Assembly (NCBI GenBank): GCA_900617105.1
Contig: UYFQ01000055.1
Coordinates: forward strand, 1-58,254
DNA length: 58,254 bases
Source of the DNA: Hydrurus foetidus
Taxonomy: Eukaryota
Direction of reading: 5' to 3'
Part shown: positions 10,243-52,091 of the stretch, piece by piece
Layout of the letters: every line of letters begins with the position of its first letter
Numbering within the stretch: the stretch's first letter is position 1
The notes under the pieces: model-generated
Database searches by the model: none
Seen by the model: only the letters and a program-made list of their open reading frames with translations
Told to the model about the DNA's origin: nothing
Program-made: the position numbers and the translations under genes

Positions 10243-11955
10243 TCAGTTGGAGTCCAGCAAGTAGAGGCCTTCCTCTACCTTGCCACTCATAACTGGGTGA
10301 GCTGTCTTTGAAATTGTCTGAAGGTGTGGGATGACATCTATCGCATTAAAGAACTTGCAGTCCTTAGAGGTGAAGATGCCCACAAATCCCTTTGCACACG
10401 CTTGAGACACTGAGAGCAGTGTGGTATCATTCATTTGATCGATGACAATAGTCTTGAGCATGAATGGTGGGAGTAGTCCCATCTCAGTAGGCTGGGCAGT
10501 CTCCCCGAAAGCTGCTGAGACACTGCATGATGTAGGTCTAAGGTCACGGAGACTGCTGCGCAATCCAGTACCAGATGTAGATGCACCACTGTCAATGACT
10601 GTCTTGTGACTTGTCTTCTTGAATGACATGAATTTGCTGTCTTTGTCTGTAACTGTAAGTAAGTTGAGACTCTTCTTCTCAGCCAGTGCTCTTGCCTTTG
10701 CACGACGTGTGGCAGACACTGAATCTCTTGATGGTGATTTGGCTGGTGGAGTGCGCATTCGATATGGCTCAGGGGTTGCCAGATCTGCCATTGGAGGATG
10801 CAAAATATCTTGTGTAGATTGCTGAGAGTCGAGTGCCATGGGAGGATGCTCCAGTTGCAATGGCTGCTGCTCTTCCTCCTTGATTGGATATTGGACTGGT
10901 GCAATCATACGAGGTACACCAGCAGTCTTAAGTGCTGGAACAATATCATCAGTAACAAGAGGAGGGTCTTGAAGCATTGGTGGAGCATGCATTGAGCTGG
11001 ATGTTCCAGGTGTCTCCTTGAACTCATTGTCATCTGATGTTTTGATGATCTTCCTGCGTGCTGGACGCTTGGTATCAGTCTGGATTGACGCCCACAGACT
11101 GCGTTTATGACCCATCACGTATGGGTGATTGTATCGGGTCAGGTCTTCTTGGCATCTCCTGTGATGATCAGATGATGACCCTGGTGGAGTCATGTCTATG
11201 TCATCACCTTCTGATTCATCGTCACTATATTCGTCGTCATCATCATCATCATCATCATCATCATTTTCTTCAGTGTGGTCAGTCGTCTCACTGAGCAGGT
11301 CCTCTCTGTTGATGGCACTCATACGTGAATATGATGTCGTGATTGGGCTTGTCTGCAATGCATAAGACTGTGGTGCTGGAGGCATTGGTTTGATGTTGTT
11401 GATGATTGCAGAGAAAGCATCGTGGAAGACTATCTGATCCAAGAACTGTGCGTTGGATCGATATGTATTCAATGTGAATAACACATTTGCTCTTGTCTGG
11501 GATTCGTCAGCTTGCATTTGCACTGCATCACGAAGTAGTTGAGCGCAGAATGACATGAAGTCGTAGATAATAGCCAAAGAGAGAATACGTAGAAGTCGCC
11601 ATGGAATGTCAGGATGCTCCATGATGTATCTGATAGCAACAAAGTACTTCTCCACGTTTCTCATATTTGATTGGTAGAACCCATAATCGTCGGAATGATA
11701 AAATTTGTCGGAGAGAGGGTTGAAGTTCATATAACTGAAATTTTCGGAACCCTCCCTGTCTGGAATCAACACGTCGGCGTTCAAGAACCTGTTTCCAATT
11801 TTGTAAAGCATTCGCATAAGCCGTTTGTCTGCTGTACGAACATCTTCTCGGATTTTCACGGATCTCGAGATGGTTGGACTCTCTGAAAGCCATGTGAATG
11901 CCACCAAGATGTGTACCATCCTTGGTTCAGCTGCTGTCAGGTCTTGGAAGCTGAC
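10243..11955 (-). pseudogene. gag: Copia-A1 truncated gag-protease
   Basis: VIDSGAS protease; ends GLYLLDSN-TGA in frame with pol. Confidence 0.9.
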
Positions 11956-12954: not shown

Positions 12955-15900
12955 ATGAGTGATAATGGATCTGAAGACGAGTTCGAGCTGTCCAACACAG
13001 ACTCTCCGCCGGCTCTTGCCGACCTCCTTCAACATCCGTTCAGAACTCTGATCGAAGCAGCTCAACCCATCTTCACTGGTCGAGTTACAAGATCTAGGAC
13101 AGGAGCAATTCCTCCTTTAGAAAATCCAAATAGTGATTTTCTAGACGAGGTGGAATTAGCCCTTCAAAATCAGGAGGTTGTTCCGACACCACCTTTAGCA
13201 CCTCGGGCGCGGAATCTCGGAGCCACAGCGACAACTTTATTTTCGGACAATTTGGAGGCTCAGGATGCAGAGACAAGATTTTCCTTCGCCGATGTGGCAA
13301 GGCTCATCGACATTATGTCTTCTAAGATCCAACAGCCTCCACCGTTGGTCTCCCAACCGAAATCAACAGTTGGATCTGCCTCTATTCCAACTGCTTCAAC
13401 GCCCAAGGCTTCTTCTATCTTATCGGTGCCCATATCGGAATACCTGGATACAACCTCTGCGCAATCGAAATTCTTCTTTTCGATGCCCAAGTTTTCCAAC
13501 TCTGGGAAGGACAACCGCGACAACATGGAAACGTTCATGGTCGCTCTAGGTGAATGTAAACTTCTTACATTAGCCAAAGGCGATCGTGAGTTACCAGTCA
13601 TTACTGCTCGGAACCCTGGAGGGTATTCACCTAGGTCACTGGTATTAGCAGAAGAAGGATTGTATGATGTCATCCCAGCTGATGACATCTACAAAAGATT
13701 ACACGATTTGGATCGCTTATTGGTTATTCTCAATATGGTTACTGGGAAAGATCTACATTATTTGATCAAGCGTGTGATTGCCGACAACGATGCGGTCTTA
13801 TGGTTCAAGACTATCTACGATCACATCAACGGCACAAAGAACAGCGACATCAGGAAGGCAACGGATCAGCTCCACTCCCTGAAGCTCAAGTCCACACAAA
13901 CCATTCAGGAGAATGTGGCAACCATCGAAGAGGCCTTCAGAGTCCTCAAAGTCGCAAGTGGCGTGCCCGTCACTGATGATCAAAAGCTTTATCATCTACA
14001 AGAAAAGCTGGAGCATGATGCAAGATTCAGCGTCTTATCAATCATGGCCTCATCAAAGACGTCAAAGGCATCCTACGACGACACCATCAAATACCTTGTG
14101 CTTCTTGATCCTGCCCCAGCGGTAGCTCACAAGATGGCTTCCCTTACTCCAACCTTGGAGCTGTGCAGACGTCACATCGCTGGCCTATGTACCAACGGTT
14201 CCTCATGCAAGTATTCACATGCAGCAGCGCCGCCAAACAAGGGAGCACCATCTGACAAGAAGCCCAACAAGAACCCACCTCCTCTCAAGAAAGATCAGAA
14301 GACTCCACCGAAGTTTCCTTTCAAGAAACCAATCATCGTGTCAGATTCCCATCGATCACTGGTTGGATATCCCAAAGGAGTTGCAACGGCAAAGAACCCA
14401 GCTGGATATTCGCTGAACCAACTTACAACCATCAGGACTTTGCAATCTGCTGATGTTGACGGCTGGACAACAGGAGATCCTCAGTATTTCAATGGCGATG
14501 GATCGAGCAACCATATCGATCGGTTCAATGTTCTTCGCTTCAAGGAACAATCAACGACATCCATTGCAGAGTTCCCAGAGTTCTACCACCTTGAGCCCTT
14601 TCCAAGACTTCGTGAGATCAGACGTCACCTGTTCACAATGCTCAACTCGGTCGAGAAGTATAACAGATTCGCCGGTTCATCTCCCAGCGACTACGATGGA
14701 TCTCCTACTGATCCTCTCTCCGGAATTGTTGTCAGCTTCCAAGACCTGACAGCAGCTGAACCAAGGATGGTACACATCTTGGTGGCATTCACATGGCTTT
14801 CAGAGAGTCCAACCATCTCGAGATCCGTGAAAATCCGAGAAGATGTTCGTACAGCAGACAAACGGCTTATGCGAATGCTCTACAAAATTGGAAACAGGTT
14901 CTTGAACGCCGACGTGTTGATTCCAGACAGGGAGGGTTCCGAAAATTTCAGTTATATGAACTTCAACCCTCTCTCCGACAAATTCTATCATTCCGACGAC
15001 TATGGGTTCTACCAATCAAACATGAGAAACGTGGAGAAGTACTTTGTTGCTATCAGATACATCATGGAGCATCCTGACATTCCATGGCGACTTCTACGTA
15101 TTCTCTCTTTGGCTATTATCTACGACTTCATGTCATTCTGCGCGCAACTACTTCGTGATGCAGTGCAAATGCAAGCTGACGAATCCCAGACAAGAGCAAA
15201 TGTGTTATTCACATTGAATACATATCGATCCAACGCACAGTTCTTGGATCAGATAGTCTTCCACGATGCTTTCTCTGCAATCATCAACAACATCAAACCA
15301 ATGCCTCCAGCACCACAGTCTTATGCATTGCAGACAAGCCCCATCACGACATCATATTCACGTATGAGTGCCATCAACAGAGAGGACCTGCTTAGTGAGA
15401 CGACTGACCACACTGAAGAAAATGATGATGACAATGATGATGATGATGACGATGAATATAGTGACGATGAATCAGAAGGTGATGACATAGACATGACTCC
15501 ACCGGGGTCATCATCTGATCATCACAGGAGATGCCAAGAAGACCTGACCCGATACAATCACCCATACGTGATGGGTCATAAACGCAGTCTGTGGGCGTCA
15601 ATCCAGACTGATACCAAGCGTCCAGCACGCAGGAAGATCATCAAAACATCAGATGACAATGAGTTCAAGGAGACACCAGGAACATCCAGCTCAATGCATG
15701 CTCCACCAATGCTTCAAGACCCTCCTCTTGTTACTGATGATATTGTTCCAGCACTTAAGACTGCTGGTGTACCTCGTATGATTGTATCAGTCCCATATAC
15801 GATCAAGGAGGAAGAGCAGCAAACATTGCAGCTGGAGCATCCTCCCATGTCACTCGACTCTCAGCAATCTACACAAGATATTTTGCATCCTCCAATGGCA

Positions 15901-16443
15901 GATCTGGCAACCCCTGAGCCATATCGAATGCGCACTCCGCCAGCCAAATCACCATCAAGAGATTCAGTGTCTGCCACACGTCGTGCAAAAGCAAGAGCAC
16001 TGGCTGAGAAGAAGAGTCTCAACTTACTTACAGTTACAGACAAAGACAGCAAATTCATGTCATTCAAGAAGACAAGTCACAAGACAGTCATTGACAGTGG
16101 TGCATCTACATCTGGTACTGGATTGCGCAGCAGTCTCCGTGACCTTAGACCTACATCATGCAGTGTCTCAGCAGCTTTCGGGGAGACTGCCCAGCCTACT
16201 GAGATGGGACTACTCCCACCATTCATGCTCAAGACTATTGTCATCGACCAAATGAATGATACCACACTGCTCTCAGTGTCTCAAGCGTGTGCAAAGGGAT
16301 TTGTGGGCATCTTCACCTCTAAGGACTGCAAGTTCTTTAATGCGATAGATGTCATCCCACACCTTCAGACAATTTCAAAGACAGCTCACCCAGTTATGAG
16401 TGGCAAGGTAGAGGAAGGCCTCTACTTGCTGGACTCCAACTGA
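12955..16443 (+). CDS. gag: Copia-A2 Gag-protease (1162 aa) with CCCH finger and extra domain
   Basis: Open ORF; CRRHIAGLCTNGSSCKYSH; VIDSGAS; GLY motif before the TGA. Confidence 0.92.
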   Translation: MSDNGSEDEFELSNTDSPPALADLLQHPFRTLIEAAQPIFTGRVTRSRTGAIPPLENPNSDFLDEVELALQNQEVVPTPPLAPRARNLGATATTLFSDNLEAQDAETRFSFADVARLIDIMSSKIQQPPPLVSQPKSTVGSASIPTASTPKASSILSVPISEYLDTTSAQSKFFFSMPKFSNSGKDNRDNMETFMVALGECKLLTLAKGDRELPVITARNPGGYSPRSLVLAEEGLYDVIPADDIYKRLHDLDRLLVILNMVTGKDLHYLIKRVIADNDAVLWFKTIYDHINGTKNSDIRKATDQLHSLKLKSTQTIQENVATIEEAFRVLKVASGVPVTDDQKLYHLQEKLEHDARFSVLSIMASSKTSKASYDDTIKYLVLLDPAPAVAHKMASLTPTLELCRRHIAGLCTNGSSCKYSHAAAPPNKGAPSDKKPNKNPPPLKKDQKTPPKFPFKKPIIVSDSHRSLVGYPKGVATAKNPAGYSLNQLTTIRTLQSADVDGWTTGDPQYFNGDGSSNHIDRFNVLRFKEQSTTSIAEFPEFYHLEPFPRLREIRRHLFTMLNSVEKYNRFAGSSPSDYDGSPTDPLSGIVVSFQDLTAAEPRMVHILVAFTWLSESPTISRSVKIREDVRTADKRLMRMLYKIGNRFLNADVLIPDREGSENFSYMNFNPLSDKFYHSDDYGFYQSNMRNVEKYFVAIRYIMEHPDIPWRLLRILSLAIIYDFMSFCAQLLRDAVQMQADESQTRANVLFTLNTYRSNAQFLDQIVFHDAFSAIINNIKPMPPAPQSYALQTSPITTSYSRMSAINREDLLSETTDHTEENDDDNDDDDDDEYSDDESEGDDIDMTPPGSSSDHHRRCQEDLTRYNHPYVMGHKRSLWASIQTDTKRPARRKIIKTSDDNEFKETPGTSSSMHAPPMLQDPPLVTDDIVPALKTAGVPRMIVSVPYTIKEEEQQTLQLEHPPMSLDSQQSTQDILHPPMADLATPEPYRMRTPPAKSPSRDSVSATRRAKARALAEKKSLNLLTVTDKDSKFMSFKKTSHKTVIDSGASTSGTGLRSSLRDLRPTSCSVSAAFGETAQPTEMGLLPPFMLKTIVIDQMNDTTLLSVSQACAKGFVGIFTSKDCKFFNAIDVIPHLQTISKTAHPVMSGKVEEGLYLLDSN

Positions 16444-19400
16444 GTGCAACCGGCTCAACTCTTGGTCACGAGTGTAAAGGAGCTTTCGATTTATGACCAC
16501 GTGCATCGCGTACTAGGACACCCTGGCGAAGAGGGTATGGCCTGGCACCGACAGCACACCATTGGAGCACACTACTCCAACTTGGATGCATCTACACCAA
16601 GACCAATATGCGCAGCATGCGTACAGGGCACGATGCGACAGACCTCTACGGACCATCTTCGTATACACCGTTTGCCATCTCCTTGCTACGGCAGTCAATT
16701 CTCACTTGACGCGTATACACATACACACCGGTCACAGGCCGGTTATAAGTACTGCGATATTATCACGGACTTATCTACAAGACGAAGTTATCCATGCTTC
16801 ACGAAAGACCGGGGAGCTGCAGAACTTGTTAAAAGCTTCTCCACCCTCTTCCAATCACATCCTGAGTGGAAGCCCTCGCTTCCAGGCGTAGACCGATTCA
16901 TCAGAGCCGATGCAGAGAAATCTTATCGGTCAGCTGAATTCCTTCAATGCCTTCACAACTTCGGATATCGACTTGAGCCAACACCACCTCGCGACAAACA
17001 TGCAAATGGAATCGCAGAACGTGCAGTAGGCGTCTTATCGATGAAGTGCAACATCACCATGCAACCTTTAGGGATGTCAGTACCACAGAAGTTCTGGGAT
17101 CTTGCCTTTGAGTATACATGCATCACCCATGCATTCAATTACCATTCAGCAATCAAGACATCACCGTATCATCTCATCACTGGAAAGCATGTAATCCTCA
17201 AGAACCTCAAGGCCTTTTGGAGCTTATGTTGGGTTCACATCGCGCTTGAAGATAGGAAAGGAAAAATCGGTTTTCCTCGTGCATACAAAGCCAGATTCGT
17301 TGGTTACGATTTATCGAGAACGCTCGAGCCTTGTTTTAAGGTCATCGAAATACTACCAACCGGAATCTTCGGCAAAATTAGGACAAGTAAGGACGTCATT
17401 TTCGACAAAGACAATAATTATAATTACACGGACGAGTACCCATCCGATCTTGACTTTTCTAATTTACACCAGAATATCAATAACGATATCTCTGCAGTCC
17501 TACCAGCTAACAAGGTAGTTGAAAAAGATTCTGAACAACAACTAGCAACTCCAGCTATTCCAATACACCCTGTACCTGTAATACCTTGCATTATTCAGAA
17601 TCGAACTCCTGAAAATCCTATTCCAGCGAAAATACATCCAAATGTGATTAACAATAACAAAATTGTTAATAAATCTGGATCGACTAATATCAAATCAACA
17701 AAACAGAATATACCGTTTGATCCAACACCAATTAGAGATACAAATAACAAATCCGACATCGATGATAATGACATTGGTATTAATACACCGATTCAAAACA
17801 TTGAAAATGACGATGCTGTCTACTGGTACTCTACTCATGTTAGAAATCACGAACATTTTCTCTCATTGATTGAAGCAAGTCATCACGAAAAACTCTTCAT
17901 CAATTTCGATCAACTCAATGTGCCAAAATCATTCTGGAAAGCTATGGCTATACCTGAATGGAAAAACGCAATAGATACTGAATTAAAGAAATTCGAGAAG
18001 AACTCATGTTTACATGTAGTACCATACATTGACCAACACCTGGTACCAATGATGTGGCTTTTTAGTATAAAAACCGACGGTACGAAAAAGGCCCGTTTAG
18101 TGGGACGGGGAGATATGATGATACCACTCGTGGACTTCGACCCCGACGCCGTATACTGCGGAAATGTATCATCGTGTTCCATCAAGATGGCACTAAGCAT
18201 TGCAGCAGCATATGGACTAGTAATGAAAGGAGGTGACCTCATTGGTGCTTACCTCATTACAAGAGCAAATGTTAACTTCCCGGTGCACATAAAGACACCG
18301 CAGGGATACACTTGCCCACCCGGTTTCTGCTTTCAGGCTGTCGGCAATCTTTATGGATTCCCACCTGCAGGGCAAAACTTTTCCATAGAGTTTGATATTT
18401 GTATCTTCGAGTGTGGTTACAAGAACACACCCTGGGACCTCAAGTTCTTCTTTAAATGGACCACAGATGGTAGACCCATGCTTATCATCGCTCACAGTGA
18501 TGACTTCAGATGGTTTGGTCCTTCGGACAAACTTGATGAATGGGATCTGATCATCGCCACCTTCAATGCACACAAGTATGAAGTCACTGATGCAACTGAC
18601 AAGGAGTTCGTTGGTATTCGTATTCAGCGTGATGAAGATGGCACATATTATATGGATCAACATCGCATGATTGATTCAATAATAAAAGAGGCTAATATAT
18701 CTGGTGCAAAGGACATGCACTTACCATACCCGACTGGGGACCAAGAACCTGCATTGTCAAAACTAGACAACGCTTCTACCCCTGAGGAACGTATGCAGTG
18801 TATGAAATACCCGTACAGGAGGGTCGTGGGTCAACTAATGTACGGTATGGTACATACCATGGTCGGCATTCTGTATGCACTCAATGTACTATCCCGTTAT
18901 GGTAACAACCCAGGTCCCAGACATATCAAATTCCTCAAACACTTATTGCAGTACTGCAAGTACGCACGAAGTGATCGACTAGTGTTCCATGGACACGATG
19001 GACCCAGAGACATCGAGACTATGACAACGCTACTTCAACTCCGGTTTCAATGCGATGCAGATTTGGGTGGTAATCCCGACAATAGCCACTCCCAGACTGC
19101 ATACCTTGGATACCTCGGCCGTAACCTTATCTGCTGGTGTTCCACCGACCAAGGCAGCATATCAACATCAACGGCAGAGTCGGAAATCAAGGCTGTCAAC
19201 CACACACTCAAAGCAGAGGTCATAGCCAACAGAGGCATCCTAAACATGATGGGATGGGTCCAAGGTCCAACCTCTATTGAAGAAGACAACCAAGCCTGTA
19301 TATACCATTCTAAGGCAGCACACATGACACGCAACCTACGGCACCTCGACCTCACCGAAAACTGGGTCAAAGAGAAGGTAGCTGATGGTACTTGCGTACT

Positions 19401-19518
19401 TGTTAAAGTTAAATCGTGCGATAATAATTCAGATATTGGTACAAAAAGAGTTTCTCTACCAATATTTAATAAACTTCTAAATCAAATTATAGACCAGTCT
19501 CAGAGACGAAATCTTTAA
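16444..19518 (+). CDS. pol: Copia-A2 integrase-RT-RNase H, in frame with gag-PR across one TGA
   Basis: Same motifs as copy 1; begins GTG immediately after the TGA, with no ATG before the HHCC motif. Confidence 0.95.
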   Translation: MQPAQLLVTSVKELSIYDHVHRVLGHPGEEGMAWHRQHTIGAHYSNLDASTPRPICAACVQGTMRQTSTDHLRIHRLPSPCYGSQFSLDAYTHTHRSQAGYKYCDIITDLSTRRSYPCFTKDRGAAELVKSFSTLFQSHPEWKPSLPGVDRFIRADAEKSYRSAEFLQCLHNFGYRLEPTPPRDKHANGIAERAVGVLSMKCNITMQPLGMSVPQKFWDLAFEYTCITHAFNYHSAIKTSPYHLITGKHVILKNLKAFWSLCWVHIALEDRKGKIGFPRAYKARFVGYDLSRTLEPCFKVIEILPTGIFGKIRTSKDVIFDKDNNYNYTDEYPSDLDFSNLHQNINNDISAVLPANKVVEKDSEQQLATPAIPIHPVPVIPCIIQNRTPENPIPAKIHPNVINNNKIVNKSGSTNIKSTKQNIPFDPTPIRDTNNKSDIDDNDIGINTPIQNIENDDAVYWYSTHVRNHEHFLSLIEASHHEKLFINFDQLNVPKSFWKAMAIPEWKNAIDTELKKFEKNSCLHVVPYIDQHLVPMMWLFSIKTDGTKKARLVGRGDMMIPLVDFDPDAVYCGNVSSCSIKMALSIAAAYGLVMKGGDLIGAYLITRANVNFPVHIKTPQGYTCPPGFCFQAVGNLYGFPPAGQNFSIEFDICIFECGYKNTPWDLKFFFKWTTDGRPMLIIAHSDDFRWFGPSDKLDEWDLIIATFNAHKYEVTDATDKEFVGIRIQRDEDGTYYMDQHRMIDSIIKEANISGAKDMHLPYPTGDQEPALSKLDNASTPEERMQCMKYPYRRVVGQLMYGMVHTMVGILYALNVLSRYGNNPGPRHIKFLKHLLQYCKYARSDRLVFHGHDGPRDIETMTTLLQLRFQCDADLGGNPDNSHSQTAYLGYLGRNLICWCSTDQGSISTSTAESEIKAVNHTLKAEVIANRGILNMMGWVQGPTSIEEDNQACIYHSKAAHMTRNLRHLDLTENWVKEKVADGTCVLVKVKSCDNNSDIGTKRVSLPIFNKLLNQIIDQSQRRNL

Positions 19519-19628
19519 ACAGCACTATACTAATTCTGTTTTAATATTGTATTTGTCTTGATCACACATATACTATGTTAATTCTAATATTATAAAGGTA
19601 GCTCAAAGTAAACATGCATTATTTTACA

Positions 19629-19649
19629 CTACATCTTCACTACGGGGAG
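19629..19649 (+). promoter_or_regulatory. Conserved pre-PPT/PPT CTACATCTTCACTACGGGGAG
   Basis: Immediately 5' of the LTR TG; identical in Copia-C (44749-44769, minus strand). Confidence 0.85.
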
Positions 19650-20262
19650 TGTCAGACCACTTGATTCTATCAAGATATGTCTGTAGTAATATAGTTGCAA
19701 ATATAGTTTCAAATATATACATGTACGTTATGCGACACGTACGTACGTAAGTACACACAGATACATAACATGCACATACATACGTACATACAGTAGTACA
19801 TAGTCACAGGTGTAGTACAACACAATGTTAGTACACGCATACGTACACACATACTACGTCTACACAGTATTACATATATAATATGTACGTATGTACAATA
19901 GCGTAGTACATAGATGTATAGCGTACTACGTAATACTGCCGATGTACGTTCTTATCATACACATGCATACGTACTCTATAATATCGCCATATAGCAGTTA
20001 GTACTCACGCATGTACGTTCATATACATATACACGCATACGTACCCTGTACTATCGCCATGTATCAGTTAGTACGAACCCTCTGACCTCACGCAAATGAA
20101 CGTTCGCCTTTCATGATTCTTCAGTATCGCCAAAACACTTCGTTACTATAAGCATTCATGCAACGTTTCAAGGCTGCTATGAACAACACATCTCGCTGAA
20201 CTTTGTCCGGTGCGTCACTGTCATGAACTGTTCGCTCATGGGCGTGGCTATCTCACTCTAAT
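19650..20262 (+). repeat. Copia-A LTR-like segment, degraded after ~19755
   Basis: Exact LTR start, then many scattered small deletions relative to the other LTR copies. Confidence 0.75.
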
Positions 20263-23125
20263 CGAGGCTGGTGGCTGGTCGATTTCCTCAGCCTCAAAGT
20301 GTAAGAAGTCACCTATATCAAATTGTGAGCGTCACTGCGAATATGAATGAGGACGCCGTTGACTTTCGCTGCGAGGAAGACCTCTGTCCTCAATTTTTTG
20401 CCGACAGATGCGAACTCTGTTTCAAGTCATTCTGTGAAAATTGTATATCTTCCCACAGCTGCCAGGGACAGTCATCAGCTTCTTCATCGGCTACAAGCGT
20501 CCAGGCTCCGACCCCAGCCCGAGAAGAGAGAAGTTCAACAGATTTAGGAGTCAAGAGGAGTCGAACGAATGCTGCTTTTCAGCAAAGCAAGAAAATTTCC
20601 ATAATGAAATTGTTGACAACAACCAAAAAATTTACGTACGACCTCAAAGACCTTAGGATTCATCCAACAAAATTTCCGCTATACAAAGAGGCAAGGGCAT
20701 CGAGTAGATCCCAATCATGGGTCTGGGATCACTACATGAGCATCAACACTAACATCAGCAAATGCGGAGATGAAAGGGTGTGGGGTAGAGACAATAAATC
20801 GTGTAACTTGTGCCATTCAGCTGCGGTCGAAGATCCAACCCTTAAATGGGCTGTATGCTATGGGGAGGCGAGGAGTACAGGACATCTTGCTCGTCACTTG
20901 GATACCTATCATCCAGAAATCGTGGAGAATCACAACAAGGGCGAAGCTGCCATTGCAAAAGCTGGAAATCTTGAAAAGTATCTGTCAACCACCGTCAGCT
21001 ATGAGGAAAAGTTCATGGAGTGGATTGTTGACACGTACCAGCCGCTCAGTACATGCGAAAGCGAATCATTTCGGGATATGATGCGATCCGTCAACAAAAA
21101 CTGCCCAAATCTCGATAGACATTCGATCATGTCAAAATTGAAACAGCGTGAACAGAGCGTCAAGTTATTGATGAAAAACGTGCTCCAGGACGAAGATGTA
21201 AGCATCACTCTTGATCACTGGACCAGCTCAGCGAATGTAAATTATGTGGCACAGACGGCCCACTTTATCGACGGCGACTTTAAATTGACGAAGCTTACGT
21301 TAGCCTGTACACAGCATAAAGGATCATCGACTGGTGCAGATTCTAAGCAGGTAACATCACACTCGTCAGACACAATCATAGTGTATTGAATTCATCTAAG
21401 TGTCTAATTCAATCGTTATTCCAGATGTTCGAAAAAATCTGTGCTGACTACGATGTGCCGCTCGATCGAGTAGTCGCTGTTGTCACTGATTCTGCAAGGG
21501 ACATGAATCTAATGGGTAGACTTATCACCACAGAGCACACCGCACATCACAATTGCCTCGACCACTGTTTGAGTAAGTTCGCTTCCACGAAAGAATTGGA
21601 CTCTTTAGGAACGCTGAGCCGAGTTTGATTTTTTCAATTTTATCTGCACCCCTCACAGACTTGTGCACTAAGATGGCGTTTAGCGACAACGAGAACAGCG
21701 AGAAGACAATGAAAGCTTGCCGGGATCTCGTCGGATACTTTACGGGATCATGCCAGGCCAACGAGGCGCTCTTGAAGCTGCAAAATAATGATCCCGTTGG
21801 AATGGTTCAAGACGTCGTCACAAGATGGTGGAGTACGTTGGCGATGTTGATGAGACTCCTACGTTTGAGACCACAGCTTGCATACATGGTTGCAGAAAAT
21901 ATGTTGAGCAAGGATGTCAACCTTACTGGGCAGCAATGGCGTACTGTGGAACAGATTACAAAAGTCCTCATTCCATTTAAGGAGGTCCAGATCTTGATGG
22001 AAGGCGAGAAGTATGTGACAAGCAGCTTAATACCTGGACTAATTAGCCTTGTGAGAAAGGGACTCCAGGATGCGTTGAGCGACTGCAACAATCTACAATG
22101 CGTGACCGATCTCGCAGCAAAAATGATGAAAAAGTTCGAGGAAGATTTTGGTACTGGCGATATTGACACAGTATTTAGAGAACATCAAAGTTTAGGAGTG
22201 AATAACAGGCTGAAGGGTTTCCCTTTGAAAGTAATGATGTGTGCAGCACTTGATCCACGGACTAAGAATCTCACAGGAATTCCGAAAGGAGGAGACAGAG
22301 ATGATGTATGGGAATCAATACGCGAGATGCTATTTAGGAATTGGCGAAATGAACAGGAGAGGACCAGAAAATCCCCCACAGTTACCGTAAGGTCACTCCC
22401 TCGTGATACCAGTATTCCTGACTTATGGGCCTCTGACGATGAATGTGATGTGCCAGCTGACGATCAAGAGGATCTCAAAATGCATCAGAGAATTGATTAC
22501 GAGATAAATGAGTATAAAAAAGCAGCAAGATTGGAAATGAGAGTGTCGAAGTTTGACGGTTCCTTAGGTGGTTTCACAAATCCCTTGGTTTGGTGGAAGG
22601 ACAACTGTCTTGCGTACCCTCTCTTGAGTCGGCTAGCGAGAAAATTACTCTGTATTCCTGCTACATCGGCACCGTCAGAGAGAGTTTTCTCTGTCGCTGG
22701 TTTGACCATCTCGAATCTGAGATCGAGGCTGCGCCCCGATAATGCAGCGTGTCTGGTCTTCTTGAAAGAAAACTGGAAAGTGTCAAAGACCTTGACTGTA
22801 AAGTAATGTCTACAATGATGAGTGACATGTCGACTGTGTGGATTCACTTATAAATAATGCGCAATAAATACTAAATACTCGAACATTTCATTAACTCATT
22901 ATCAGCACAATTAATTACCAATGAGCGCCATCTTAAATTTGTTGGCAAGCAGCGGTGAAGATGAAGAACGTCGTCGACACAAACTCGAGCAGCGACTTTT
23001 ACTGCTACCGGCTGCGGGCTGATGAATCTCATGACTTTCAGCCGCTGACAGCCCGGGCTACGGGCTGTGTCTTCAAAATGGCACACCGGCTGCGGGCTAC
23101 GAAAGTCGATCAGCCCCCATCCCTA
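20262..23125 (+). mobile_element. hAT DNA transposon
   Basis: Right end …GTCGATCAGCCCCCATCCCTA (TAGGG-type TIR), subterminal ACCGGCTGCGGGCT repeats, degenerate TIR-like sequence at ~20262-20293. Confidence 0.8.
20343..22806 (+). CDS. hAT transposase, 3 exons (introns 21351-21424 and 21573-21658)
   Basis: BED finger SWVWDHY…CNLC…LARHLDTYH; LDHWTS; VTDSA; splicing restores CLDHCLNL; TRWWST; PATSAPSERVFS dimerization motif. Confidence 0.9.
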
Positions 23126-33095: not shown

Positions 33096-36000
33096 ACCGG
33101 GGTCATCATCTGATCATCACAGGAGATGCCAAGAAGATCTAACCCGATATAATCACCCATACGTGATGGGTCATAAACGCAGTCTGTGCGTCAATCCAGA
33201 CTGATACCAAGCGTCCAGCACGCAGGAAGATCATCAAAACATCAGATGACAATGACTTCAAGGAGACTCCTGGAACGTCAAGCTCAATGCATGCTCCACC
33301 AATGCTTCAAGACCCTCCTCTTGTTAATGATGATATTGTTCCAGCACTTAAGACTGCTGGTGTACCTCGTATGATTGCACCAGTCCAATATCCAGTCAAG
33401 GAGGAAGAGCAGCAGCCATTGCAACTGGAGCATCCTCCCATGTCACTCGACTCTCAGCAATCTACACAAGATATTTTGCATCCTCCAATGGCAGATCTGG
33501 CAACCCCTGAGCCATATCGAATGCGCACTCCACCAGCCAAATCACCATCAAGAGATTCAGTGTCTGCCACACGTCGTGCAAAAGCAAGAGCACTGGCTGA
33601 GAAAAAGAGTCTCAACTTACTTACAGTTACAGACAAAGACAGCAAATTCATGTCATTCAAGAAGACAAGTCACAAGACAGTCATTGATAGTGGTGCATCT
33701 ACATCTGGTACTGGATTGCGCAGCAGTCTCCGTGACCTTAGACCTACATCATGCAGTGTCTCAGCGGCTTTCGGGGAGACTGCCCAGCCTACTGAGATGG
33801 GACTACTCCCACCATTCATGCTCAAGACTATTGTCATCGATCAAATGAATGATACTACACTACTCTCAGTGTCTCAAGCGTGTGCAAAGGGATTTGTGGG
33901 CATCTTCACCTCTAAGGACTGCAAGTTCTTTAATGCGATAGATGTCATCCCACACCTTCAGACAATTTCAAAGACAGCTCACCCAGTTATGAGTGGCAAG
34001 GTAGAGGAAGGCCTCTACTTGCTGGACTCCAACTGAGTGCAACCGGCTCAACTCTTGGTCACGAGTGTAAAGGAGCTTTCGATTTACGACCACGTGCATC
34101 GCGTACTAGGACACCCTGGCGAAGAGGGTATGGCCTGGCACCGACAGCACACCATTGGAGCACACTACTCCAACTTGGATGCATCTACACCAAGGCCAAT
34201 ATGCGCAGCATGCGTACAGGGCACGATGCGACAGACCTCTACGGACCATCTTCGTATACACCGTTTGCCATCTCCTTGCTACGGCAGTCGATTCTCACTT
34301 GACGCGTATACACATACACACCGGTCACAGGCCGGTTATAAGTACTGCGATATCATCACGGACTTATCTACAAGACGAAGTTATCCATGCTTCAGGAAAG
34401 ACCGGGGAGCTGCAGAACTTGTCAAAAGCTTCTCCACCCTCTTTCAATCACATCCTGAGTGGAAGCCCTCGCTTCCAGGCGTAGACCGATTCATCAGAGC
34501 CGATGCAGAGAAATCCTATCGGTCAGCTGAATTCCTTCAATGCCTTCACAACTTCGGATATCGACTTGAGCCAACACCACCTCGCGACAAACATGCAAAT
34601 GGAATCGCAGAACGTGCAGTAGGCGTCTTATCGATGAAGTGCAACATCACCATGCAACCTTTAGGGATGACAGTACCACAGAAGTTCTGGGATCTTGCCT
34701 TTGAGTATACATGCATCACCCATGCATTCAATTACCATTCAGCAATCAAGACATCACCGTATCATCTCATCACTGGAAAGCATGTAATCCTCAAGAACCT
34801 CAAGGCCTTTTGGAGCTTATGTTGGGTTCACATCGCGCTTGAAGATAGGAAAGGAAAAATCGGTTTTCCTCGTGCATACAAAGCCAGATTCGTTGGTTAC
34901 GATTTATCGAGAACGCTCGAGCCTTGTTTTAAGGTCATCGAAATACTACCAACCGGAATCTTCGGCAAAATTAGGACAAGTAAGGACGTCATTTTCGACA
35001 AAGACAATAATTATAATTACACGGACGAGTACCCATCCGATCTTGACTTTTCTAATTTACACCAGAATATCAATAACGATATCTCTGCAGTCCTACCAGC
35101 TAACAAGGTAGTTGAAAAAGATTCTGAACAACAACTAGCAACTCCAGCTATTCCAATACACCCTGTACCTGTAATACCTTGCATTATTCAGAATCGAACT
35201 CCTGAAAATCCTATTCCAGCGAAAATACATCCAAATGTGATTAACAATAACAAAATTGTTAATAAATCTGGATCGACTAATATCAAATCAACAAAACAGA
35301 ATATACCGTTTGATCCAACACCAATTAGAGATACAAATAACAAATCCGACATCGATGATAATGACATTGGTATTAATACACCGATTCAAAACATTGAAAA
35401 TGACGATGCTGTCTACTGGTACTCTACTCATGTTAGAAATCACGAACATTTTCTCTCATTGATTGAAGCAAGTCATCACGAAAAACTCTTCATCAATTTC
35501 GATCAACTCAATGTGCCAAAATCATTCTGGAAAGCTATGGCTATACCTGAATGGAAAAACGCAATAGATACTGAATTAAAGAAATTCGAGAAGAACTCAT
35601 GTTTACATGTAGTACCATACATTGACCAACACCTGGTACCAATGATGTGGCTTTTTAGTATAAAAACCGACGGTACGAAAAAGGCCCGTTTAGTGGGACG
35701 GGGAGATATGATGATACCACTCGTGGACTTCGACCCCGACGCCGTATACTGCGGAAATGTATCATCGTGTTCCATCAAGATGGCACTAAGCATTGCAGCA
35801 GCATATGGACTAGTAATGAAAGGAGGTGACCTCATTGGTGCTTACCTCATTACAAGAGCAAATGTTAACTTCCCGGTGCACATAAAGACACCGCAGGGAT
35901 ACACTTGCCCACCCGGTTTCTGCTTTCAGGCTGTCGGCAATCTTTATGGATTCCCACCTGCAGGGCAAAACTTTTCCATAGAGTTTGATATTTGTATCTT

Positions 36001-44240: not shown

Positions 44241-44955
44241 TGTGAGTCAGACTGTGGAGTGAAGCGAGCTACCTGTTGGCTGCGGAAGCGCAAAGGAAAG
44301 ACTGGCTGATGGAAGTGGTCTCGGAAGACGTGTTTACTTACAACGATCAAGTAGTAAAACAACTGGCGATGATATCAGAGAAGACAACCATCAAAGAAGC
44401 AGAGCAAAGCATCCATTGTGCATGAAATGGTGATCGCCGAAGTGGAAACATATTCAGCGAATATTCAAGTTGGCGATTGAGCAATGGGCGGAACCCTCGC
44501 TGCTCATGAAATCGGATGCTTGGTGGAAACCGGATACCTGGTGGAAATCCGGATGCTTGGTGGTGAAAAACCGGATGCTTGGTGATGGCCCCGAAGGGGG
44601 ATATCGCTAGAAGAACGATGAGCGTATGTACACAACAGTGTATGGCGGTGTTTTGGGTGAGGAAGCGCTACACTACTTGTGACATGTGAATGCTAATCTA
44701 CAGATGAAACTATGCTAACAGATCATGCATGAATATGCTGGACTGACACTCCCCGTAGTGAAGATGTAGCTGAACGTGTTATTGAGAGTATCGAAATGAA
44801 TGATATGTGTATATATACTCCCCGTACTGAGGATGTACTCCCCGTACGAGAGATTTGGCAAAAAGTGTAAAAAGTTAGTTATAATATATGCGTGCACTCA
44901 TATAAGATAGTAAAATTAGTACGTATGTTAGAAATATGGATATTAAGTATTTATG

Positions 44956-47825
44956 TTATTTAATATTAGTTCGTAAAGACTTGTCAACGAGCCTGTGCGT
45001 TAGGTATTCGAAAAGTGGTAGTGGAACTCTTTTCGTACCTATGTCTGAGTTGTTTTCGCCCGAAGGGATTTTAACAATGACACAGGTACCATCGGCGACT
45101 TTGTCCTTAAAGTAGTTTTCGCTCAGGTCAATGTGACGAAGGTTCTTGGTCATGTGTGTATGATTTGAAGCATCAACACAAGCAGAATTGTCTTCTTCGA
45201 TGACTGTAGGAGCTTGTGTCCATCCCATGTGGTTTAGTATGCCCCGGAGGGGAATGACATCGGATTTTAGTGCGTGATTAACTGCCTTGATTTCGGATTC
45301 TGCAGTTGATGATGAGATGCTGCCTTGGTCGGTACTCTTCCAGCAGATGACATTGTCGGCGAGGTAGCCAATGTAGGAGGTCTGGGAGTGACGGTTGTCT
45401 TTGTTACCGGCGAGGTCGGCGTCGCATTGGAACTTCAACTGCAGTAGACTGGTCATCGTAGCGATGTCGGTGGGACCGTCGTGTGTGGTGAATTTCAGTC
45501 TATCCATCTTGGCGTACTTGACATATCGAAGTAAGTGCTTAAGGAACTTGATGTGTCGTGCACCTGGACTGTTACTATATCTGGATAGTATGTTGAGAGC
45601 GTACATGATTGTAATCAATGTGTGTACCATTCCGTACATAAGTTGACCAACTACCCGTCGGTAGGGATACTTATTATACATGTGCCTATCGAGATCGGTA
45701 GAGTTGTCCGCCTTGGACAGACTCTCACCAGAAGGTGGATATGGTAGATGCTCATCGGCGGCGCCAGCAAGGTTGGCCTCCGATACGATGGATGTGATCA
45801 TGCGTGACTGATCCATGTAGTAGTTGAAGTTTTCATCGCATGTAATGCGGATGCCGACGAACTCTTTGGAGGTCGCGTCGGTGACTTCATACTTGTGGGA
45901 GTTGAATGTAGCGATGAGGAGATCCCATTCGCTAATGAGTGCAAGTGGTCCGAACCATCTGAAGTCGTCTGAGTGTGCTATCAGTATCAGGGGTTGACCT
46001 TGGACCCACTTAAAGAAGAACTTTAAGTCCCACGGTGTGTTTTCGTATCCACATTCGCGTACACATTTGTCGAATTCCTTTGAGAAATTCTGGCCTGCTG
46101 GTGGAAAACCGTAGAGGTTGCCAATGGCTTGAAAGCATGTGCCAAAAGGTGTGGTGTAACCTTGAGGTGTCTTGATGTGAACGGGAAAGTCGGGGTTAGC
46201 GAGTGTGATTAAGTAGGCGCCTACTAAATCTCCTCCCCGCATGGATAATTTGTAGGTTGCGGCTATGACGAGTGCAATCTTGATCGATGACGCATTGACA
46301 TTACCGCAGTATACTGCGTAGGGGTCGAAGTCGACCCAGGGTATCATGAGATCACCACGACCTACGAGGCGGGCCTTCTTGGTGCCGTCAGTCTTGATAC
46401 TGAAGAGCCACATCATTGGTACGAGGTGCTGGCCGGTGAAGGGGACAGACCGGAAGCAGTTGTTGACTTCAAACTTAGTGCGCTCAGTGTTGATGGCCTG
46501 TTCCCACTCTGGGTACTGCATTGCGGTCCAGAAGTCTTTGGGGATGTAGGGATCCTTGATTTGGACTGCTATGTTGTAGTGCAGGACACGGAAGAGGTGA
46601 ACAGGGAAGCATGTGGAAGAACTGGTGTAGGTGGACCAGTATATCATGTCATCGTTGACTGAGTGCTCTGTCTCAGGACAGGGGTTATATAGTCGGGGTC
46701 GATAAGGGGTGCAGGTGAGGGGAGGCCGGGTAGGTCGACTCGCTCAGGCACCACAATAGGGTCATTATCATTATCAGTATAGTAGAGGGACGGGATGAGG
46801 GCGAAGGCCTCGTCGGTAGGGAAGTGTGCATCTGAGTCATGCTTGAAGTTGTTGTGCATGTCGAAGATGACATCCTTACTGACTCGAACAGTACCGTAGG
46901 TGTTCTTGGGTAGTATTTCTAATACTAAATATTGTGGTACTAGTATAGATGTAAAACTATAACCAACGAACCGAGCACGGTAGGCACGAGGTGACCCAAC
47001 TTTACTTTTCTGATCTTTGGGTGCGTGCTTGACATAGCAGGGTGCCCAGAATGGTCGAAGCATCCTGATGTCCACGTGTTGCCCAGAAGTGAAGTGATAC
47101 GGAGAAGTACCAATACGCTTGTTAAGGTTAAAGGAATGAGTAACACATGCATAGGACATTGCAAGGTCCCAGAACTTCATTGGCACATGCGGAACAGGGG
47201 TTATCATGGCAACGTTGGTCTTGAGAGCTACAATGCCGACTGCTCGCTCAGCGATGCCGTTGGCATGTTTGTCACGAGGTGCAGTGTGCTCAAGTCGGTA
47301 TCGGTATCGGGCGCAAAGCGCAGTAAATTCTTCAGATCGGTAGTTGGCCTCTGGGTCATGCCGGATGAAGCGATCAACCCCAGGGGTATTGTGGTTCCAT
47401 TGGGGGGTTAGGTCGAAGAAGGCTGCAATGCGGGCACAGAGTTCAGAGGCGGACCGGTCTTTTGTATATACAGGATAGTATTGTCCCGACGCGAGGTCGG
47501 TGAGGATGTGAGTGTAACGGTAGTTACGGAATGATGGAGTCGAGTGGGTATAGGCATCCAAGGAGAACTGCTGGCCGACGAGGGTAGTTGTGTCTCTGTG
47601 AATGCGACGATAGTCTGTGGATGCTTGACGCATTGCGCCATGGGCGCATCCAGGACAGACCGGACGGGAGGTGTGTGCATCTTTGGTGGTGAAGCGAGCA
47701 TTGAGGGAATGATCGCGGTGCCATGCCATGCCTGGAAGACCGGGGTGGCCTGTGGCTTGATGCACGTGGTCGTACAGTGAAGCGGGAGTATAGTGTGTGA
47801 CCAAAAGACTCTCCCGAGTGGTTGG
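44956..47825 (-). pseudogene. pol: Copia-C IN-RT-RH (frameshift near 46647)
   Basis: YDHVHQATGH…CPGC, AERAV, KKARLVGRG, HSDD, CDADL; clearly homologous to Copia-A pol. Confidence 0.92.
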
Positions 47826-50800
47826 TCAGTAGGGAGTCTCCACGTAGAGGCCGTCTTGGACGGTTCCACGGGTGACCTCCTTTCCATGCTGAGCTACCAG
47901 TGCAATGTAGGGAAGGGCTGATGCAGTCTCATAGAAGCGGAAGTCTTTATGAGTGAAGATGCCGATGAAGTGGTCGTTGGTGACACCGCCAGCGCAGAAC
48001 TGGGAGACAGAGACAAGGGTGCTGTCGCCTAGTGCAGGGAGAAGGAGGGTGCTAAGCTCCAACGGTCCGAGGCTGCCTTGGTGTGTTGGTGTCATGGACG
48101 GACCGAATGCAGGGGTGACTGTGACGGATGTGCTGACAGGTTCAATGCTGGTAAGACGTTGGGAGCGGCCGGTGCCAGAGCGTGAAGCACCAGAGTCGAA
48201 GATGACCTTGTCGGGGACGTGGAACGAGTTGAGTCTCTCATGTTGGGACTTGACGACGAATGTGTTGAGCTTGGAGTCGGAGGTACCGCCGGATGGTGCA
48301 GGAGGGCGAGCTGATGCAAGCGGAGGGCGAGTACTGTTGAAGGCATGTCGGACATTTGTCGAGCGTTGAGATCCGACTGGTGGAGTCATTCGGTGGCGCT
48401 GGGCACGAGGCATAGTGAAAGGCGAGTCGGATGCAAGTGGTTGCGCGGCTTGCCAACGTTTGAGTGACCCGGTAAGAGGGTCAGAGGGTGTCGATGGAAC
48501 AGGTGGTAACGGAGTATTGAACTCCGGAAGCGTAGTGGGAATCGATGTTGAAGGTGAGGCGGAAGAGGATGCTGACGAGGACGAGGTAGTGTCTTGACGC
48601 TTAGTGTCCCCTTGAGCCTGGTCTTTCTGGAATGCGATGCCGCGCTTCCTGGCGTTGTACCGCTGAAGTTCCATGGATGCGTCCGGTGGTACCCATGGGG
48701 ATGCGTCTGATGGAGGGACCATGAGACGTGTGACGGCTCCATGTAGGTAGTTGACATAAGAGAGGGCGCATCGAGGGCCACTGATGTTATGTGTTGGACA
48801 GGACATGTTGTACGGGAGGAAACAGATGGAGTCTTCGACAGAGGACTCTGAATCGCTCTCATAGTTCCGCAAAGTGTATCTTTGGCGTATGTTCTGTGGG
48901 GCTGTAGATGCTGCGAGGTCCCTGGCGAGAGATACTGTGCGGTAGTGTGACTCGGTGGGTTCAACAGGATCGGGTCCGACGAAGAGGCTGTTGGGTGTAA
49001 CATGAAATGCATCGGGTAGGACATGCTGGATTACGACTCGAATAGCTTGGATGAATGACTCGTTCGATCCAGTTCGTGTCATAAGACCGTCAACGTGCGC
49101 ATCAACTTCCGTGAGCATGAGTATGCGAAGAGTGGGAATGTTGTGCCAGGAGTTGCCGGGTGCATTGGCATATCGGGCAAGCTGTGCTGCGACCCAGGAG
49201 GCACAGTCGTAGATGAGGACACTTTCAAATATCGCCATGTGGTCTGGACTGATCTGGTCGTCGAGGTACAGAGCAGTGTGGACGAGGAAGTAAAAGAAAA
49301 TGTTCCCGACTGTGGACTGATAGGTGGTGATGTCTTCAATCAAGGTTGGATTGAAGGTGCGGTAGTGCCCTGGGTCATACTCAAGATTGGGTGGAGTCGG
49401 CGGCTCAGTGTTGGCGAGCAGCAGGTTGCGAGCAATCTTGTGGATGAGGTTCATATACCGAGAGTATCCGTCTCTGACATCAGCGCGGCAGTTGCTGAGG
49501 GTGGTTGGGGATACCCAGCCGAAAATAGCGAGGTATATATGAGGCGCCGGTGTAGGGGATCCAGGCAAGGCGGGACGGTTCACATAGATGATGAAGTCAT
49601 TTGCTGAGAGGGGCTGCTGATGAATGCGGTGGTGGACCACAGTGTAGTACTGAAGGATGTACGTGGAGCATTGTCGGCAGATACCCTGGAAGACAGTGGA
49701 GGAGGTGACTTCGTCATTGGTGAGGAAGGCCCAGGTACGTGTGAAGGCATCGACTTCTTCTTGCATTGGGGTCCCATATGTTGGCGAGGAGATGTTCTGA
49801 TGGCGCGGCGTGTCCCATGCTGTAGCATTCTCTGGGGCGACAGGAGTCGGGGGTACCCAGGAGTACTGGGGTAGATGCTGGTTGAGTATGTTCGGAACGT
49901 ACGTACGGTCGGAGCATTAAGGGAGAGGCGGCATTAGAAGATGGACGAGTTGGAGATCGCAGTGGTGAGTGTCCTGATGGAGGGAGTCCTGGCGGAAGTG
50001 CTAACTCGAGAGGAGGATTAGACGGTGTATCCGGAGGAGGTGCTGGGTCAGTGTCGGTGACTCGGAACATGTTGAGGGAGAAGCGCACATACCCGGAGGG
50101 TTCGGCGTTATCCAAAAGCGTGTTGTTCTGCCATCCGTCCTCAGGGTTGATGTTGGGTCCGTTGGTAAGAAGCTTCATGGGGATGTTGCTCTTGAGGTAA
50201 GGGACGCGGCCATCGATACTCGTCACTGGGAAGGTCTGCTTGGGAGGGTACTTGCCCTTGGCTTTGATCCGGTTCTTGTCCGTGACTGGAGCGGATCCAG
50301 GTGGGGCAGGAGGATGTGCTTTGCCAGAGGGAGGTGTCGCTGCCGGTGGCTTAGCAGGAGCATGATAGTACTTGCACTTGTTACCGAGAAGGCAGGTACC
50401 AGCGAGGAACTTGCGGCAGGCTTCAGGGGTAGTGGACAAGGCAGCTATCTTGACCGGCTTGTCTTGTAGGAGGGCATACTCGGAATAGACAACAGCTCTC
50501 TCCAAAGTTTGGTGATAGGTGAGCATGTTGCTATGGCAGGACATAAAGTAGGATTTGGTGTTGGGGCGGTGGTCGTTCATGAAGGCGTTGTGAAGGAATT
50601 GAAGGCGCTCCTGCTCGGTGCTCGGTCTGGCCTGGGCATACTCGAATTCTGTCATTAACGTTGTAAACCTCACTAAATCCTCTTGAAAACAAGTAGCCGT
50701 GGAGCCCTTGAAGTTTTGTAGAAGCCGCCGAAGTCGGTTGATGTCTGCTTCAGTATGTCCGTAGTAGTGCTTGTGCATACGTTTATAAATAGCGATCCCA

Positions 50801-51493: not shown

Positions 51494-52091
51494 TGGCCGA
51501 CTTGAGATATCTGTTGTGATGAGATACCGTTGATATATTGATACTATATCGATGATTGCTGAACTTTCTATGCAATCGCTACCATGTGAGTCAGACTGTG
51601 GAGTGAAGCGAGCTACCTGTTGGCTGCGGAAGCGCAAAGGAAAGACTGGCTGATGGAAGTGGTCTCGGAAGACGTGTTTACTTACAACGATCAAGTAGTA
51701 AAACAACTGGCGATGATATCAGAGAAGACAACCATCAAAGAAGCAAAGCAAAGCATCCATTGTGCATGAAATGGTGATCGCCGAAGTGGAAACATATTCA
51801 GCGAATATTCAAGTTGGCGATTGAGCAATGGGCGGAACCCTCGCTGCTCATGAAATCGGATGCTTGGTGGAAACCGGATACCTGGTGGAAATCCGGATGC
51901 TTGGTGGTGAAAAACCGGATGCTTGGTGATGGCCCCGAAGGGGATATCGCTAGAAGAACGATGAGCGTATGTACACAACAGTGTATGGCGGTGTTTTGGG
52001 TGAGGAAGCGCTACACTACTTGTGACATGTGAATGCTAATCTACAGATGAAACTATGCTAACAGATCATGCATGAATATGCTGGACTGACA

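What the first reader, a model, noticed from the sequence alone, without database searches (positions are those of the whole stretch)
16414..16510. Conserved in-frame UGA between protease and integrase in two divergent Copia families
Seen: all three Copia-A copies (10243-10245, 16441-16443, 34034-34036) read GLYLLDSN*VQPAQLLVTSVKELSIYDHVH. Copia-C, which has different LTRs and a diverged Gag, reads GLYVETPY*PTTRESLLVTHYTPASLYDHVH (TGA 47826-47828). The stop lies the same number of codons after GLY in both, the frame continues, and there is no ATG before the integrase HHCC histidines. Known: Gag/Pol ratios are set by frameshift (Ty1), splicing (Drosophila copia), or a stop at the gag/PR boundary (MLV UAG, Candida Tca2 UGA). 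Inference: this clade makes Gag-PR abundantly and IN-RT-RH by programmed UGA readthrough or another recoding step after the protease. I do not know this arrangement as an established Copia strategy.
Basis: partly seen in the sequence, partly recalled or inferred. Interest (0 to 1): 0.88.

Follow-up and report, generated by a model that had tools for sequence, protein, structure and literature searches.

The report
Copia clade with stop after protease
A whole branch of Copia-type jumping genes keeps one stop codon at exactly the same spot between its protease and integrase genes, so it likely makes plenty of coat-plus-protease protein and only a little of its copying enzymes, probably by occasionally reading through that stop; I did not find this layout described for Copia elements.

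Summary
Confirmed and much wider than the window. All four copies carry an in-frame TGA five codons after the protease GLY motif; a third family (L006) does too. In a protease tree, 41 of 43 rows of one clade end exactly at GLY+5, at about 40% identity with synonymous sites near saturation. Both sides of the stop are under purifying selection, so this is not decay. Relatives put their single break elsewhere: an in-frame UGA before the protease, a predicted -1 frameshift inside integrase, or none. That points to a movable Gag:Pol control. Mechanism is untested: readthrough about 0.55, separate Pol start at UUG/CUG about 0.2, splicing about 0.12. No clear RNA signal, SECIS or code change was found. 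Gag+PR as the major product is known (Drosophila copia, by splicing), and a single post-protease stop is listed for plant Ty3/gypsy Retand/Ogre, but for none of 16 plant Copia lineages. The scan had earlier noted gag-UGA-pol Copia in other genomes, not this post-protease layout. New variant of a known kind.

The parts
16441..16443 (+). In-frame UGA between protease and integrase, copy A2 (the finding)
12955..16443 (+). ORF1 of A2: Gag, CCCH zinc finger, unknown ~240-aa domain, acidic/proline-rich linker, protease (1162 aa)
14158..14220 (+). CCCH-type zinc finger in Gag (weak Pfam hits here, E 0.006-0.014; 12 of 19 aligned members hit PF00642)
14584..15312 (+). Unnamed, confidently predicted folded domain between zinc finger and protease
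16072..16440 (+). Aspartic protease (DSG motif at 16093); the predicted last strand is the GLY strand, so the stop sits at the end of the fold
16441..16457 (+). Possible short hairpin whose 5' arm begins with the UGA (5 pairs); post hoc, unproven
16459..16470 (+). LLVT motif, presumptive PR/IN cleavage site; contains a TTG near-cognate start at 16462
16444..19518 (+). ORF2 of A2, same frame: IN (HHCC His at 16504 and 16519, first ATG at 16537), RT (PF07727), RNase H; ends TAA
11955..12879 (+). 5' LTR of A2 and primer-binding site (12868-12879, shared with C and L007)
19630..20263 (+). Polypurine tract (shared with C) and interrupted 3' LTR of A2
10243..10245 (-). Same UGA in copy A1 (pol 7168-10242 intact; 5' part missing)
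34034..34036 (+). Same UGA in copy A3 (5' part missing; one frameshift near 36627)
47826..47828 (-). UGA at the homologous place in family C
44241..52091 (-). Family C element with 99.6% identical LTRs (44241-44748, 51585-52091) and several frame breaks

Best explanation
The UGA is a clade-wide, selected break at the end of the protease of a Ty1/copia lineage, and it likely sets the ratio of structural to enzymatic protein: most ribosomes would stop and release Gag-X-PR, and a small share would likely read through the stop to give the full Gag-PR-IN-RT-RH polyprotein. Shown here: position, frame, conservation, selection on both ORFs, and that relatives carry one break each at other places. Inferred: that the bypass is translational readthrough by a near-cognate tRNA, that the long product is packaged through its Gag part, and that the protease then frees integrase at the LLVT motif 5-6 codons behind the stop. 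The signal is not identified; candidates are a short stem pairing with the UGA itself, the conserved nucleotides at codons +9 and +19 to +22, the near-invariant Ser two residues before the stop, or a distant element.
For: (1) Conservation: 15 of 16, 22 of 76 rows ending at +5 with no other short ending, the rest fused (46) or not scorable (8), 40 of 40 cluster members that reach GLY (of 54 listed), 31 of 150 distant representatives at +5. (2) One clade: 25 stop rows plus P0003, support 99/94; 41 of 43 rows, SH-aLRT 89; integrase tree, 29 of 30 rows of the matching group lack PR at their N-terminus, SH-aLRT 91. (3) Selection: A1/A2 differ by 12 synonymous and 1 replacement change from PR to RNase H; between families pS is 0.62-0.84 against pN 0.18-0.45. 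(4) Frame kept: spacers of 15, 18 and 18 nt in A, C and L006, no second stop, no ATG before the HHCC histidines; the fused sister P0050 has the same short linker with a sense codon. (5) The hydrophobic motif 11 residues before YD is present in all 52 fused proteins scored, where it cannot be a start, and is kept behind the stop. (6) Relatives use other translation-level breaks, one per element: in-frame UGA before PR (L002, L007) or a -1 shift at A_AAA_AAC plus stem inside IN (L001, L005). (7) All 5 internal stops seen as DNA are TGA, while the pol ORFs of A, C and the element in L007 end in TAA. (8) C and L006 have UGA-C, a leaky context by established knowledge (PMC2194720 section 3). (9) Two contigs from runs guessed to be RNA bridge the stop unchanged and unspliced.
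Against: No direct evidence of a readthrough product. Family A has UGA-G. Folding of the six windows tried per junction gave z from -2.9 to +0.7 for A, C and L006, with no shared downstream structure. Codon-level conservation after the stop is only mildly raised (5 of 10 against 2.3 expected; windows as good occur 7 times in 415). The UGA:UCA stems differ in geometry and were noticed post hoc. A TTG lies at the LL of LLVT in all three families although TTG is 5-9% of Leu codons, which favours the separate-start rival. Only 3 families were seen as DNA; for the other rows the protein end shows a stop but not which codon, nor the frame of pol. One decayed protein (P0302) has Gln at the stop position, which would fit UAA/UAG better than UGA. 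In Tca2, the closest tested case, 300 nt around the UGA gave no readthrough in yeast (PMC2194720 section 12). The RNA status of the runs is a guess and contigs drop rare forms.
Confidence: 0.55

Rival explanations
1. Pol is made as a separate IN-RT-RH protein, started at the UUG/CUG codon of the LL motif, by reinitiation after the UGA or from a shorter RNA with an internal promoter, and is packaged without a Gag fusion.
For: TTG at L1 or L2 in A, C and L006 against 5-9% usage; this is the predicted natural integrase N-terminus; 11 of the 59 pol hits are called from this position; Tca2 has a weak junction promoter.
Against: The spacer stays in frame and open, with one triplet indel across near-saturated divergence. 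Gene-caller starts are not independent evidence, since 28 of 52 fused proteins have Met there anyway. It needs a Gag-independent packaging route.
Confidence: 0.2
2. A minor spliced RNA removes the stop, as in Ogre, joining gag or gag-PR to integrase.
For: Ogre does this at its PR/RT boundary (PMC6317226). Each family has a phase-2 AG after the stop (A +29, C +17, L006 +11 and +32), and the stop sits in a branch-point-like CTGA in all three.
Against: No intron that keeps both GLY and HHCC is shared, and L006 has none. No shared consensus donor in 1338 nt upstream. There is no spacer: the two ORFs abut in frame. No joint.
Confidence: 0.12
3. A fraction of the RNA is edited (A-to-I, UGA read as UGG) in a hairpin that contains the stop.
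For: In 5 of 5 junctions with DNA the UGA can pair with a downstream UCA in a stem of 4-7 pairs; about 10% of arbitrary codons do, and codon resampling gives a joint 0.003.
Against: Post hoc, junctions not independent, loops of different size; no A>G at 16443; no editing enzyme was looked for, as no genome is held.
Confidence: 0.07
4. The stop is a lesion, or the elements are non-autonomous Gag-PR carriers, or the host reads UGA as an amino acid (Trp or Sec).
For: Several copies in the window are broken; four database proteins have a residue at the stop position (P0003 Arg, P0113 Trp, P0347 Trp, P0302 Gln).
Against: All four carry other lesions, and P0003 nests in a family where 10 of 10 members that reach GLY stop at +5. 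Pol is under purifying selection. All 47 Trp codons counted in four ORFs are TGG, with no other in-frame TGA; no SECIS-like stem in four 3' regions and no Rfam match.
Confidence: 0.04

Closest known systems
Retand and Ogre (Ty3/gypsy, Tat lineage; REXdb, PMC6317226 supplement 3)
   Same: Two ORFs broken after the protease; a single stop codon in 49% of Retand and 14% of Ogre elements with intact coding sequence.
   Different: Gypsy order (next domain is RT); plants; Ogre bypasses by splicing of a spacer averaging 274 bp. Here the next domain is integrase and there is no spacer.
Drosophila copia (PMC11835246, passages read)
   Same: Ty1/copia whose short, abundant product is Gag plus protease.
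   Different: copia has one ORF and makes the short product by splicing; here the stop is in the DNA and the long product needs the bypass.
Tca2 of Candida albicans (PMC2194720, abstract and sections 3 and 12 read)
   Same: Ty1/copia-type element with one in-frame UGA between two ORFs and an unresolved bypass.
   Different: Its UGA lies at the end of gag, with a proposed pseudoknot. The sister clade of L002/L007 has this layout; the clade of the finding has the stop one domain later.
Alpharetroviruses such as Rous sarcoma virus (recalled, not checked in a paper)
   Same: Protease belongs to the Gag ORF and is made at Gag levels.
   Different: Retroviruses; RT-IN reached by -1 frameshift, not through an in-frame stop.
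SIRE1 / Sireviruses
   Same: Copia elements with in-frame stops (pol/env; GAG:s:PROT in 10%).
   Different: Stops lie before PR or after pol, not between PR and IN.

Membership tests
Ty1/copia LTR retrotransposon | Domain order PR-IN-RT-RH | tested here: met
   Protease fold, gag_pre-integrs across the junction E 5e-5 and RVT_2 E 2.5e-16, motifs
Ty1/copia LTR retrotransposon | TG..CA LTRs, primer-binding site, polypurine tract | tested here: met
   PBS and PPT shared by A and C
Ty1/copia LTR retrotransposon | Target-site duplication | tested here: inconclusive
   None seen around C; the A copies are truncated or nested
Tca2-type gag-UGA-pol elements | UGA between gag and protease | tested here: not met
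   Gag and PR are one ORF in A2 and in the homologues; the layout is met by L002/L007 instead
Tca2/MLV-type readthrough signal | Pseudoknot or stem about 8 nt after the stop | tested here: inconclusive
   No shared stem by single-sequence folding; pseudoknots were not modelled; only 3 DNA sequences
Programmed stop-codon readthrough | Fusion protein made above background | not testable with these tools
   Needs a reporter, ribosome profiling or mass spectrometry
Retand/Ogre (Tat lineage) | Ty3/gypsy order PR-RT-RH-IN with extra RNase H | tested here: not met
   Copia order; works-like analogy only
Ogre-type splicing bypass | Non-coding spacer with shared donor and acceptor around the stop | tested here: not met
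   No spacer and no shared frame-keeping intron around the stop; a distant donor is not excluded
Selenocysteine recoding | SECIS element in the 3' UTR | tested here: inconclusive
   No candidate in a simple pattern scan of four 3' regions and no Rfam match; atypical elements could be missed
Diatom CoDi lineages | RT groups with CoDiI, CoDiII or CoDi6 | not tested
   No reference sequences on hand; PMC2806351 (passages) reports at most one stop or frameshift between gag and pol

The most novel reading that the evidence does not exclude
An undescribed superfamily of protist Copia elements in which the Gag:Pol switch has moved among at least three places (UGA before PR, UGA after PR, -1 frameshift inside integrase, or none), with the post-protease UGA bypassed by a signal unlike known readthrough elements, possibly a hairpin that includes the stop codon itself.
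Probability: 0.3. Interest if true: 0.85.

Novelty: new variant of a known kind. Interest (0 to 1): 0.72.

Why it matters
How Copia elements keep enzymes scarce relative to capsid protein is known for only a few cases, and the in-frame UGA of Tca2 is still unexplained. Here a large natural series has the stop fixed one domain later, next to sister clades with three other layouts. That allows direct comparison of what the break position does, gives dozens of junctions for finding the bypass signal by covariation, and warns that annotation pipelines will score these intact families as broken.

Tried and rejected
No host genome is held, so no genome-wide count. The search for related loci found nothing in metagenome contigs or viral contigs (the PR alignment was too variable); pattern scans of viral contigs found 0; phage records gave no match. 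Code reassignment rejected. SECIS not found. A local intron rejected. The bacterial promoter scan is irrelevant to a eukaryote and was not used. One search (four runs, DNA or unknown kind) listed no change at 16441-16443, but 191 rows of its difference table were cut, so it is not counted as support; it also shows one contig joint 16367-16453 in a DNA run with non-splice ends and unknown letters between, read as a diverged relative. Runs X17 and X18 do not cover the junction. The PDB sequence search with the PR profile gave no meaningful hit; the fold matches are modest (best Z 6.1, rmsd 3.5, 76 aligned). The middle domain matched nothing clearly in three fold libraries (best Z 5.7), which does not show a new fold. 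Gao et al. 2003 (RNA 9:1422), the main survey of gag/pol recoding, is not held and may bear on novelty. Nine paper searches were answered (on the layout; on a possible host); none listed a Copia with a stop between PR and IN, but only listings were seen for most hits. PMC9744471 (passages) treats stops as decay and was not relevant.

Full report
Observation. The window is a nest of eukaryotic transposons. Four Copia copies of two families carry an in-frame TGA five codons after the GLY motif: A1 10243-10245(-), A2 16441-16443(+), A3 34034-34036(+) and C 47826-47828(-). In A2 a 1162-aa ORF (ATG 12955) ends at this TGA and a 1024-codon ORF follows in the same frame. The first in-frame ATG is codon +32 or +33, behind both HHCC histidines. 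A and C share the primer-binding site and polypurine tract. The upstream domain is a retropepsin-type protease by predicted fold (pLDDT 90; top matches all aspartic proteases, best Z 6.1, rmsd 3.5 over 76 residues), and the GLY strand is its last predicted strand. The downstream ORF has RVT_2, and gag_pre-integrs spans the junction.

Conservation. A search with the protease region returned 16 proteins of 46-86% identity; 15 end exactly five residues after GLY and one ends before it. Over all 76 protease-containing proteins then held, 22 ended at +5, 46 ran on into integrase and 8 could not be scored; none ended at another nearby offset. In four clusters, 40 of the 54 listed members reach GLY and all 40 end at +5. 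Among the best 150 distant representatives, 68 do not reach GLY, 12 lack a scorable GLY, 31 end at +5, 23 continue, 12 end at +8 to +12 and 4 end elsewhere. In protease trees the +5 rows form one group: 25 rows plus P0003 with support 99/94, and 41 of 43 rows with SH-aLRT 89 in the larger quick tree. Rows with incomplete protease were left out, and the trees have only 128 columns. The integrase tree agrees: 29 of 30 rows of the matching group lack a protease in front (SH-aLRT 91). A pattern scan gave seven loci; of the six that reach the protease end, L006 belongs to this clade and has TGA at GIY+5 with pol in frame. Ser stands two residues before the stop in 28 of 29 distinct C-termini.

Not decay. 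A1 and A2 differ by 12 synonymous and 1 replacement change from protease to RNase H, and A3 and A2 by 15 and 3 before A3's frameshift. Between A, C and L006, pS is 0.62-0.84 and pN 0.18-0.45. Four database proteins do have a residue at the stop position (P0003 Arg, P0113 Trp, P0347 Trp, P0302 Gln). All four show other lesions, and P0003 nests in a family whose other members stop at +5. Arg and Trp are one change from TGA; Gln is one change from TAA or TAG, so UGA may not be invariant. The host does not read UGA as Trp in these ORFs (47 TGG, no other in-frame TGA).

Context from relatives. The wider group shows four layouts, one break per element. (a) Stop after PR: this clade. (b) In-frame TGA before PR, as in Tca2: L002 and L007, in a group of 23 rows whose proteins start just before PR. 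(c) Gag-PR-IN core in one ORF, then a shift to the -1 frame at A_AAA_AAC followed by a predicted stem: L001 and L005, with eight proteins leaving the frame at the same Lys-Asn, among them P0050, the sister of clade (a) in the protease tree. (d) One ORF, such as the 2009-aa P0238. Layouts (b) and (c) are classic translation-level controls, and they exclude each other and (a). I infer that the post-protease UGA does the same job.

Mechanism. For readthrough: the spacer is open and in frame (15, 18, 18 nt), the linker has the length of the fused sister's, the presumptive cleavage motif 11 residues before YD is kept, internal stops are TGA in 5 of 5 while pol ends in TAA in 3 of 3, and two of three families have UGA-C. 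Against: A has UGA-G, folding shows no shared downstream structure, nucleotide conservation after the stop is only mildly raised, and the Tca2 junction gave no readthrough in yeast (PMC2194720 section 12). For a separate Pol start: a rare TTG at the LL motif in all three families. For splicing: phase-2 AG sites exist, but there is no shared intron or donor. For editing or a structure at the stop: the UGA can pair with a downstream UCA in all five junctions, against about 10% for arbitrary codons and a joint 0.003 under codon resampling, but this was noticed after the fact and the geometry varies. Two contigs from runs guessed to be RNA cross the stop unchanged, which is weak evidence against dominant splicing or editing. 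I put readthrough at 0.55, a separate start at 0.2, splicing at 0.12, editing at 0.07 and the rest at about 0.06.

Comparison with what is known. It is a Ty1/copia by domain order and cis elements. It is not a Tca2-type element, because gag and PR are one ORF. The REXdb table lists no GAG-PROT stop INT layout among 16 plant Copia lineages (5 of them undetermined), but lists GAG-PROT:s:RT-RH-INT for 49% of Retand and 14% of Ogre Ty3/gypsy elements (PMC6317226, passages and supplement 3). Drosophila copia makes Gag+PR as its short product by splicing (PMC11835246, passages). For diatom CoDi elements the text reports at most one stop or frameshift between gag and pol (PMC2806351, passages; its supplement was not read). 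Nine searches did not list a Copia with a PR/IN stop, but Gao et al. 2003 could not be read. The scan's earlier notes cover gag-UGA-pol Copia in other genomes and nothing for this sequence or layout.

Host. Not determined. The family occurs in biofilm, glacier, freshwater, sediment and air metagenomes of several studies, and related contigs sit inside bacterial MAGs, which I read as eukaryotic contamination. A cold-freshwater alga such as a chrysophyte is a guess from habitat, untested.

Verdict. A real, old and selected feature of a Copia clade. Each ingredient has a precedent, but the combination was not found in print, and the surrounding group offers a natural comparison of four layouts. 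New variant of a known kind; interest 0.72.

Noticed in passing
L001:864-870 and L005:3269-3275 (approximate); P0043, P0046, P0047, P0049, P0050, P0056, P0102, P0106: Related Copia families keep Gag-PR-IN core in one ORF and continue in the -1 frame from an A_AAA_AAC heptamer followed by a predicted stem, i.e. a candidate programmed frameshift inside integrase, before its C-terminal domain. I do not recall this position being described.
   Followed up: partly
L002 and L007, about 45-55 codons before the protease DTG motif: A sister clade (23 rows) has an in-frame TGA between gag and protease, both followed by GAT; Tca2-like layout.
   Followed up: partly
P0274, P0279, P0283, P0290, P0295, P0296, P0297, P0309, P0312, P0329: A separate, more distant clade (10 rows, SH-aLRT 98) also ends 8-12 residues after the protease GVY motif: possibly a second, independent post-protease break. 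What follows is unknown.
   Followed up: partly
window 14584-15312 (+): A ~240-aa domain between the zinc finger and the protease, present across the group, predicted with pLDDT 89.5 and without Pfam or clear fold match.
   Followed up: partly
window 14158-14220 (+) and about 50360-50420 (-): The Gag zinc finger is CCCH-type rather than the CCHC knuckle usual for retroelements.
   Followed up: partly
L002-L007: Six contigs with these eukaryotic Copia sequences are filed in five bacterial MAGs, likely contamination.
   Followed up: no
window 6123-23993: A1 and A2 lie back to back at 11955; A2's 3' LTR is only about 82% like its 5' LTR and is cut at 20263 by a DNA-transposase-like region (hAT-like by recalled motifs) followed by another A LTR. 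Nesting, recombination or mis-assembly.
   Followed up: no
window 54500-57722 (+): A further gag of the same group (distant similarity by eye, with CCCH finger and middle domain) that is broken and ends before the protease.
   Followed up: no
window 1-79 and 28590-28668: An 87% identical purine/pyrimidine-skewed end cuts both a Gypsy-like integrase and a decayed Copia RT.
   Followed up: no
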